Below are positions 6,479 to 56,545 of a stretch of DNA of 64,000 nucleotides, in pieces (position 1 is the first letter of the stretch; each line of letters begins with the position of its first letter). The translations under genes were made by a program, and so were the position numbers. The DNA is from Octopus vulgaris (lineage: Eukaryota): contig OX597839.1 in NCBI GenBank assembly GCA_951406725.2, forward strand, positions 19,530,001 through 19,594,000, in the 5' to 3' direction. The notes below the pieces were generated by a model, which did no database searches, was not told the DNA's origin, and worked only from the letters and a program-made list of their open reading frames with translations.

Positions 6479-6552
6479 GCCCCTATAGTTCATTGGTTTA
6501 GAGCACTGGTCGCGTAAACCTGGGGTTATGAGTTCGAATCTCACGGGCGGCA
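6479..6552 (+). pseudogene. tRNA-Thr(CGT)-like pseudogene forming the head of a mini-SINE
   Basis: Cloverleaf GCCCCTA-TA-GTTC-ATTGGTTTA-GAGC-A-CTGGT-CGCGTAA-ACCTG-GGGTT-ATGAG-TTCGAAT-CTCAC-GGGCGGC-A. It has mismatches in the acceptor, anticodon and T stems, and G at position 33. Confidence 0.7.
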
Positions 6553-24715: not shown

Positions 24716-24794
24716 TTTAATGCAGCAGGGTTTTTTTCCGTACGGGAAACTCAGAGTAACAGGTTTTGTTGAATTTTCTGCTGCTTTAAATAAA

Positions 24795-24795
<1 letters not shown>
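24716..24795 (+). repeat. Truncated copy of the hammerhead foldback element (3' half of the ribozyme only)
   Basis: GAAACTCAGAGTAACAGGTTTTGTTGAATTTTCTGCTGCTTTAAATAA matches 39797-39845 (reverse complement) and 56424-56472. CUGANGA is missing. Confidence 0.75.
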
Positions 24796-39760: not shown

Positions 39761-39821
39761 ACTTATATATCTATAGTTATCTGTCTATCTATTTATTTAT
39801 TTAAAGCAGCAGAAAATTCAA

Positions 39822-39871
39822 CAAAATCTGTTACTCTGAGTTTCTCGTTGCCGTTCATCAGACAGTTTTTG
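39822..39871 (-). ncRNA. Type I hammerhead ribozyme motif with a canonical core
   Basis: Minus strand: CAAAAACUGU-CUGAUGA-ACG-GCAA-CGA-GAAA-CUCAGAG-UA/ACAGAUUUUG. It has a 9/10-bp stem I, GNRA-capped stem II, palindromic stem III and a GUA cleavage triplet. Confidence 0.8.
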
Positions 39872-40320
39872 CTGGCTGCTTTAAATAAAGCATATTACTC
39901 TACCACTGGTATTTGAGTACTCTTTTTTCCACCTTGTTTCACATTTATGTGTTTACTCCGGTATTTATTTATTTATACAGGTATATACTGTACCCACGCA
40001 GACACACACACACATAGATACATTCATGCAGTCATATATCCACATGTTCGAGGAATTTATACTTGCATAATTTCAACATTTATATCAACTCTAGTGGAAT
40101 AAAGAAAAAAATAAAACAATATCAAAAATTCACAAAAAACAAAAACAAAAACAACTTCACTTGTTTCCGAGAAACGAGCACCATGCCTTCCACTCCACCA
40201 CCAGCAACAAGAACAACGACGGCGGCGAATATTATGACCATTATCACCAGAACAACAATCACCACAACCACCATTATGAATACCATTTCTTAAAGATGTC
40301 ATTAACAAAGAAAAGACGTA

Positions 40321-56359: not shown

Positions 56360-56545
56360 TTAAGCAGCAGAGATTTAACAAAAGCTGTTACACGGAGTTT
56401 CACTGTCCGACGAACGGGAACGTGAAACTCCGAGTAACTGTTTTTTGTCAAATTTCTGCTGCTTTTAAATAAAGTATATATATGCCTCTGGTATTTGAGT
56501 ACTCTTTTTCCACCATGTTTCACATTTATTGGTTTACTCCGGTAT
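56360..56545 (+). ncRNA. Hammerhead foldback element; motif at 56403-56440
   Basis: CUGU-CCGACGA-ACG-GGAA-CGU-GAAA-CUCCGAG-UA-ACUG, with arms at 56362-56403 and 56422-56464. The right flank matches about 39900-39963. Confidence 0.7.

What the first reader, a model, noticed from the sequence alone, without database searches (positions are those of the whole stretch)
39797..39963. Canonical-core hammerhead inside a palindromic element whose copies keep the ribozyme on either strand
Seen: the minus strand at 39822-39871 has intact CUGAUGA, GAAA and GUA, and its stem I is extended by outer arms TTATTTAAAGCAGC/GCTGCTTTAAATAA. The copy at 56360-56545 has the same right flank, but its hammerhead is on the plus strand with a partial antisense copy to its left. 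24716-24795 keeps only the 3' half. Inference: the parent is a palindrome with two opposed hammerheads, so transcription in either direction would include one. One defect here is an A.A mismatch at the base of stem II (A-U at 56414/56423).
Basis: partly seen in the sequence, partly recalled or inferred. Interest (0 to 1): 0.72.

Follow-up and report, generated by a model that had tools for sequence, protein, structure and literature searches.

The report
Head-to-head stump of Penelope retrotransposon
The hammerhead-ribozyme motif and the palindrome are real, but they are one short, mirror-image end piece of a recently multiplied Penelope-like jumping gene with thousands of copies in this genome, likely made when two copies of the front of its RNA were joined head to head, and not a self-standing two-ribozyme element.

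Summary
The motif and all three window copies are as described. The parent is not a palindrome. It is a 3365-bp Hydra-clade Penelope-like retrotransposon (711-aa RT/endonuclease ORF, one hammerhead per pseudo-LTR, copies 99.1-99.95% alike) that inserts into (TA)n; at least 4071 tail ends exist. 39796-39963 is a 5'-truncated insertion: an inverted arm with the hammerhead, plus a 16-nt direct arm with the 73-nt tail. The 'extended stem I' is that junction. The A·A mismatch is the state of the young subfamily, and a mismatch there is common in the clade. Two-hammerhead palindromes do recur (172 exact centres), but their RNA folds into a perfect hairpin that buries the ribozyme. Three patterns bear on mechanism. 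Inverted insertions carry exactly one tail (0 of 58 with two). Short arms stop at -78..-85, the 5' edge of stem I, about 17 times more often than elsewhere, and not at the cleavage site. ORF-spanning copies never stop there (0 of 19). Best reading: two cDNAs primed from both ends of a cut, run to an uncut RNA's 5' end and joined. Cleavage, start site and expression are untested. This scan reached the same reading on other DNA before.

The parts
39796..39873 (-). Inverted, tail-less arm: parent pseudo-LTR positions -1 to -78 (0 = last G of AATAAAG), holding the whole hammerhead; it ends in the family's stop hot spot
   Evidence: 98.7% over 77 nt to the intact parent pLTR; alignment; in other runs the parent continues beyond 39873 as loose ends
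39820..39873 (-). Type I hammerhead motif: stem I 4 bp + A·A + 7-8 bp, core CUGAUGA/GAAA, stem II 2 bp + A·A with GCAA loop, palindromic stem III ACUC-A-GAGU, GUA site (cut predicted between 39832 and 39831)
   Evidence: cleavage not tested
39874..39874 (.). One extra G at the head-to-head junction
   Evidence: sequence against parent
39875..39890 (+). Direct arm, parent positions -15 to 0, ending in AATAAAG; pairs with the inverted arm to give the 14-bp 'outer arms'
   Evidence: loose ends at 39875 in other runs show the parent's upstream
39891..39963 (+). 73-nt 'tail' between the two element ends; in parents it runs on towards the ORF (ATG at +139)
   Evidence: 100% over 73-74 nt to most intact parents
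56362..56545 (+). Older-subfamily insertion: short inverted arm 56362-56401, direct arm from about -71 with hammerhead (CCGACGA, A-U at 10.1/11.1, U·U at 1.3) and tail
   Evidence: ribozyme sequestered, MFE -56.5 against -16.2 constrained
24716..24795 (+). Decayed insertion: tail-less arm 24742-24795 (3' half of the hammerhead) ending in AATAAAG-(TA)n, with a short worn inverted arm to its left

Best explanation
39796-39963 is a short, 5'-truncated, head-to-head insertion of a recently expanded Hydra-clade Penelope-like retrotransposon, likely formed when the element's protein primed two cDNAs from the two ends of a cut (TA)n site, one at each end of the 73-nt tail, copied an uncleaved RNA towards its 5' end and the two cDNAs were joined. 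Shown: the parent, its ORF, the target, the arm anatomy, the one-tail rule, the stop at -78..-85 and the absence of a stop at the cleavage site. Inferred: two-ended priming; that the stop is a transcription start near -83, at the 5' edge of stem I; and that the hammerhead belongs to the parent's cycle, where the two pLTR copies of one transcript would pair through the palindromic stem III and cut as a dimer. In a lone stump like this one the motif is likely an inactive passenger.
For: Parent: 727-aa stop-to-stop ORF (711 aa from M) between direct hammerhead-bearing repeats 3365 bp apart, with RWK, DKT, YRDD, CxCx5C, CxxC..E and CxH; seven ORFs 99.1-99.95% identical; 1074 homologues among 7996 scored candidates, the listed ones mostly ~700 aa and 43-58% identical, one with a GIY-YIG hit. 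Ends: 4071 exact tail+(TA) ends and 3723 AATAAAG+(TA) ends. In 90 tail-anchored insertions taken by position on C1, 60 had an inverted segment; 58 of these reach or nearly reach the element end and none has a second tail (p=2e-19 if ends paired at random). Of 30 tail-less ends, 20 had an inverted partner reaching an end and all 20 carry the tail (16 are loci of the first set). Stops: 21 of 39 tail arms and 22 of 27 inverted arms reaching -78 end in -78..-85; 0.125 per nt against 0.0073 for -10..-70 and 0.0057 around the cut site. -83 is the A of an initiator-like CCATTCT; 4 of 5 arms ending at -83 are preceded by G where the parent has C. Arms of one insertion share subfamily letters in 24 of 28 loci (shuffles: mean 13, max 20). 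In vitro a PLE protein cuts and extends both strands, starts at the two tail ends and does not need hammerhead cleavage (PMC11167929). Monomer stem III probability is 0.00; the stem III self-duplex is -9.4 kcal/mol.
Against: No RNA evidence for a start at -83. The initiator pattern is loose (13 matches in 1100 nt) and I saw no DPE-like motif by eye. The G at -83 is also the partner arm's last letter in all four cases, so it is not a clean cap mark. ORF-spanning copies do not stop at -83 of their upstream pLTR (0 of 19), so a second template class is needed. The inverted-arm figure is inflated: the parser missed about six long inverted arms that BLAST found. One insertion outside the positional sample has two tails (L080), 30 of 90 had no inverted segment in the BLAST chain, and the 24716 copy has no tail. 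The in vitro study saw no strand preference of start sites, so it does not itself predict the one-tail rule. Pfam and PDB did not recognise the protein.
Confidence: 0.75

Rival explanations
1. One reading: a non-autonomous palindromic element with two opposed hammerheads is the parent and spreads as a unit; one-hammerhead copies are its deletion products.
For: The GCTAGC-centred palindrome is the commonest single junction (172 exact centres; 5-7 of 90 in the sample). The junction type closest to the window's recurs 12 times.
Against: Arms run past the GCTAGC centre into parental upstream sequence (-81 to -146), which deletion from a palindromic master cannot give. The same centre occurs in two subfamilies whose letters match ORF-bearing copies. 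Long ORF-bearing inverted copies have the same two ends. The RNA is a perfect hairpin.
Confidence: 0.07
2. Inverted arms come from self-priming or fold-back of one cDNA (or of an antisense template) at short palindromes, as proposed for rotifer Penelopes; the pile-up reflects the CTAG palindrome, not an RNA end.
For: 17 of 65 arms stop exactly at -80 on CTAG. Some junctions follow the stem I register (L205, L008, L016). The model is in print (PMC3846280, passages).
Against: About 16 of 43 arms in the hot spot have a partner that ends elsewhere or no partner (my count). Fold-back of one cDNA does not explain why only one arm has the tail, or why the tail-less arm is often the longer one, as in the window.
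Confidence: 0.1
3. Two-ended priming holds, but the stop at -78..-85 is a barrier to RT in the initial complex (protein or structure bound just 5' of stem I, like a telomerase template boundary), not a transcription start.
For: The stop affects only the first hammerhead met: 21 of 39 against 0 of 19 on the second pass (Fisher p=2e-5). The cap mark is ambiguous.
Against: The stop lies after RT has crossed the whole stem, at an initiator-like A; a Penelope internal promoter in the pLTR is documented (PMC2377424, passages).
Confidence: 0.15

Closest known systems
Hydra clade of C-terminal-EN Penelope-like elements (Craig et al. 2021, PMC8557442; section 11 and Files S1-S2 read), e.g. Hydra-2_Amil, Hydra-2_Ajap, Penelope-3_HM, Penelope-13_HM, Hydra-1_Obim
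   Same: RWK, DKT, CxCx5C, CxxC/CxH motifs, single ORF, (TA)n target, type I hammerhead near the 3' end. Stem III ACTC-N-GAGT in 5 of 25 listed families; Hydra-2_Amil also shares CTGT/ACAG stem I and the GUA site. A mismatch at the base of stem II in 15 of 25 (14 U·U, 1 U·C; my count by eye). Penelope-13_HM is listed with a hammerhead on both strands from an inverted 5'-truncated copy.
   Different: Not Hydra-1_Obim (different hammerhead and N-terminus, compared by eye). Unit 3365 bp with a 1.1-kb 3' UTR against under 3 kb. Stem II only 2-3 bp. Tail 73 nt against the 30-40 bp quoted for PLEs.
PLE minimal/dimeric hammerheads (Cervera and de la Pena 2014, PMC4209133; parts 1-2 of 4 read)
   Same: Type I motif in pLTRs, palindromic stem III, mostly dispersed single motifs from truncated PLEs, dual motifs on opposite strands 100-700 bp apart already reported, low in vitro activity.
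   Different: Their consensus has G10.1-C11.1 and a long helix II; here A10.1 faces U, G or A and helix II is very short, while helix I is long.
PAc Poseidon element of Anolis (Frangieh et al. 2024, PMC11167929; parts 1-2 of 4 read)
   Same: Two RT start sites bounding the tail, AT-rich targets, both strands cut and extended, hammerhead cleavage not required.
   Different: Different clade; no inverted products or 5' stop analysed in the parts read; its hammerhead overlaps the ORF start, here the ATG is 139 nt past the first end.
Non-LTR retrozymes (bioRxiv 10.64898/2026.07.22.740005; part 1 of 5 read)
   Same: Type I hammerhead, derived from PLE pLTRs, non-coding.
   Different: Retrozymes are direct tandem repeats; these copies are single head-to-head insertions with variable junctions.

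Membership tests
Hydra-clade PLE | Single ORF with RT core and C-terminal GIY-YIG-type endonuclease | tested here: met
   711-aa ORF with FxxFDIxxFYPSI, MGxYDGxE, YRDD, then GVVY..YTG. No Pfam or PDB hit for this protein; homologue P0002 has a GIY-YIG hit. Motif-level evidence.
Hydra-clade PLE | RWK motif and DKT in place of DKG | tested here: met
   RWK at 37, DKT at 113, no DKG (definition)
Hydra-clade PLE | CxCx5C linker, CxxC and CxH around the conserved E and N; no CX2-5CxxC | tested here: met
   CNCKNESSC 562, CRLCLLE 667, CRH 695
Hydra-clade PLE | (TA)n target; pseudo-LTRs, inverted 5'-truncated copy, optional tail | tested here: met
Hydra-clade PLE | Placement in the clade by RT phylogeny | not tested
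   No tree with named Hydra references was built
Type I hammerhead ribozyme | Core C3-U4-G5-A6-N7-G8-A9, G12-A13-A14, A15.1-U16.1, NUH site, stems I-III | tested here: met
   core letters other than U4 and N7 kept in 93-95 of 95 parsed copies (the parser itself allowed only 3 mismatches)
Type I hammerhead ribozyme | Paired 10.1-11.1 and a stable monomeric stem III, loop 1/loop 2 contacts | tested here: not met
   A·A at 10.1/11.1; P(A15.1-U16.1)=0.000; no Rfam hit. Fits the dimer-type PLE variants instead.
Type I hammerhead ribozyme | Self-cleavage at GUA | not testable with these tools
   Needs an assay; arm ends are not enriched at the site
Non-LTR retrozyme | Direct tandem array of short hammerhead-bearing monomers | tested here: not met
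   Short copies are inverted or single
Self-spreading palindromic (MITE-like) element | One fixed master sequence with constant centre and symmetrical ends | tested here: not met
   Variable junctions, one-tail asymmetry, continuity with ORF-bearing copies

The most novel reading that the evidence does not exclude
The family's fossil copies record two template classes. Capped linear RNAs starting at the first base pair of hammerhead stem I give the thousands of stumps by strictly coupled two-ended priming (one tail per insertion). Long copies come from an end-less template, a 3365-nt circle made when the two pLTR hammerheads of one transcript pair through stem III, cut as a dimer and re-ligate. 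That would give PLE hammerheads a defined job and explain both pseudo-LTRs and head-to-head repeats.
Probability: 0.25. Interest if true: 0.65.

Novelty: new member of a known kind. Interest (0 to 1): 0.36.

Why it matters
As a locus it is ordinary. As a family it offers a very young, intact Hydra-clade element with thousands of short insertions whose ends can be counted. How PLEs form inverted repeats and what their hammerheads do are named as open in PMC8557442. The one-tail rule, the stop at the 5' edge of stem I and the lack of that stop in long copies give three predictions testable with CAGE, RNase R and a purified protein. The stumps are also a large predicted source of perfect 40-80-bp hairpin RNA in host transcripts (inference; possible editing or small-RNA substrates).

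Tried and rejected
Rfam: no hammerhead family at either threshold. Pfam and PDB: nothing for the ORF. The protein atlas gave no result. Expression: no RNA holder listed on record; 14 holders are only guessed to be RNA and all are contigs, so the depths are used neither for nor against expression, start site or cleavage. Insertion polymorphism at 39797: no contig spans the site, no verdict. My first guess of Neptune clade was dropped for Hydra. Cleavage-defined 5' ends (arms ending near -36): not enriched. A splice acceptor at TTCTAG (-79..-77) as the cause of the stop: rejected, since arms keep the 'intronic' letters and the old subfamily lacks the AG. RT stalling on the hammerhead on every pass: rejected (0 of 19). 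One search had an off-by-one error and was replaced. Literature: 8 searches found no paper that counts tail asymmetry or a 5' stop in Hydra-clade insertions; subscription papers and Repbase/Dfam were not searchable, and the supplements of PMC11167929 and PMC13282606 were not looked at and may bear on this.

Full report
Observation. The three stretches read as described. The minus strand holds a type I hammerhead motif with core at 39861-39855 and 39844-39841 and a GUA site at 39834-39832. A descriptor scan of both strands found it and one poor hit elsewhere. Rfam does not recognise it. The host is a 2.8-Gb genome in 227 contigs, probably an octopus (inference from earlier scan notes and recall; not tested).

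Finding the parent. DNA searches gave 147-1541 candidates, of which 40 were scored each time. Most copies sit in (TA)n and have variable centres. Three copies shared non-palindromic upstream sequence, and one led 1.2 kb upstream to the end of an ORF. Searching with that piece gave 150 scored of 16036 candidates, many with the same 727-aa open frame. In 18 fetched loci the unit is hammerhead - AATAAAG - 73-nt tail - ORF - 1.1-kb UTR - hammerhead, 3365 bp long. The window's inverted arm is 98.7% and its tail 100% identical to most of these. Seven ORFs differ by 1-19 of 2181 nt. The protein has the Hydra-clade marks RWK, DKT, CxCx5C, CxxC and CxH (Craig et al. PMC8557442 section 11). By eye it is not Hydra-1_Obim. 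Homologue search: 1074 hits among 7996 scored candidates.

Anatomy of the finding. With 0 as the last G of AATAAAG, 39796-39873 is the inverted arm (-1 to -78), 39874 is an extra G, 39875-39890 is the direct arm (-15 to 0) and 39891-39963 is the tail. The 14-bp outer arms arise because both arms contain -15..-1; they are not part of the parent's ribozyme. Contigs of other runs show the parent's continuation as loose ends at 39873 and 39875, and many other junctions.

The ribozyme. The A·A is shared by 58 of 95 parsed hammerheads; older copies have A-U (13), A·G (21) or A·C (3). In Craig's File S2, 15 of 25 Hydra families have a mismatch at this step and 5 share ACTC-N-GAGT (my count). The monomer does not form stem III (P=0.000); two copies can pair there (-9.4 kcal/mol). 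This matches the dimer-type PLE motifs, which cut poorly in vitro (PMC4209133). In two-arm copies the RNA is a plain hairpin (-142 against -58 kcal/mol), so the palindrome would silence the ribozyme rather than guarantee it. Cleavage is untested.

How the stumps form. Exact patterns count 4071 tail ends, 3723 tail-less ends, 172 perfect two-hammerhead centres, 12 centres of the type nearest the window's, and 1851 hammerheads with parental upstream. I took 90 of the first 100 listed tail ends on C1; one duplicate (L249) was dropped for rates. Sixty have an inverted segment; 58 reach or nearly reach the element end, none with a tail. From the other side, 20 of 30 tail-less ends have an inverted partner reaching an end, and all 20 carry the tail. 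Seven long inverted loci with both outer ends in view also have one tail each. Exceptions: L080 has two tails and the 24716 copy has none. Arm 5' ends pile up at -78..-85: 21 of 39 tail arms and 22 of 27 inverted arms at risk (the latter inflated by about six missed long arms), 0.125 per nt against 0.0073 background; the cleavage site shows 0.0057. Both arms share subfamily letters in 24 of 28 loci. These patterns fit two cDNAs primed at the two tail ends, as the two start sites and two-strand extension of the Anolis element allow (PMC11167929), running to the 5' end of an uncut RNA and joining by microhomology; CTAG at -80..-77 gives the perfect palindrome. -83 is an initiator-like A, one of 13 such matches in 1100 nt. 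Four of five arms ending there are preceded by G, but the partner arm also supplies that G. A Penelope promoter inside the pLTR is known in Drosophila virilis (PMC2377424, passages).

What does not fit a single template. Of 24 parsed 5' ends of ORF-spanning copies (4 of 19 newly fetched loci gave no anchor), 19 pass -70 of the upstream pLTR and none stops at -78..-85 (p=2e-5). Long copies therefore need a read-through, jumped or circular template. A hammerhead-made circle was proposed in PMC4209133; it cannot be told from tandem DNA by sequence alone.

Known or new. Inverted 5'-truncated copies, the one-sided tail, junction palindromes and opposed hammerheads are in print (PMC8557442; PMC3846280 passages; PMC4209133). 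Recently active Penelope-like families are reported in an octopus annotation that does not mention hammerheads or the Hydra clade in its main text (PMC13282606 passages). I found no paper with these counts in 8 searches. Earlier notes of this scan give the same reading for other families; they are not independent support, and my reading was recorded before I opened them. The cap-mark test came from one of them.

Verdict. Interest 0.36, for the testable mechanism and the intact young family.

Noticed in passing
L152-L169 (e.g. G000:C1:64213000-64222990): Many near-identical intact 727-aa copies, often as long head-to-head inverted pairs; a candidate active Hydra-clade element for biochemistry.
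   Followed up: partly
L091:5640-5670 (minus) and flanks of L009, L015, L026: End of another abundant repeat with a minimal-hammerhead-like GAAGAG...CGAAAC pattern, probably a second Penelope-like family (by eye).
   Followed up: no
L011:3-617 (+): GIY-YIG C-terminus of a different PLE-like ORF (Pfam PF01541 E=4e-4, below the curated cut-off) about 880 bp from a stump.
   Followed up: partly
window 6479-6552 (+): tRNA-like element just above the Rfam gathering score; perhaps a SINE head or pseudogene.
   Followed up: no
L016, minus-strand ORF of 200 aa: Cysteine-rich ORF about 650 bp from a stump, resembling a cystine-knot cytokine by recall only.
   Followed up: no
L081, about 150 bp upstream of the stump: An older relative with the same tail but a decayed hammerhead core.
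   Followed up: no
window 59150 (-): Weak match to the hammerhead descriptor with long unpaired stems; probably chance.
   Followed up: no
family-wide: From old to young subfamilies the core went CCGACGA to CCGAUGA to CUGAUGA while the 10.1-11.1 pair and stem I position 1.5 lost pairing; order inferred from divergence, no tree built.
   Followed up: partly
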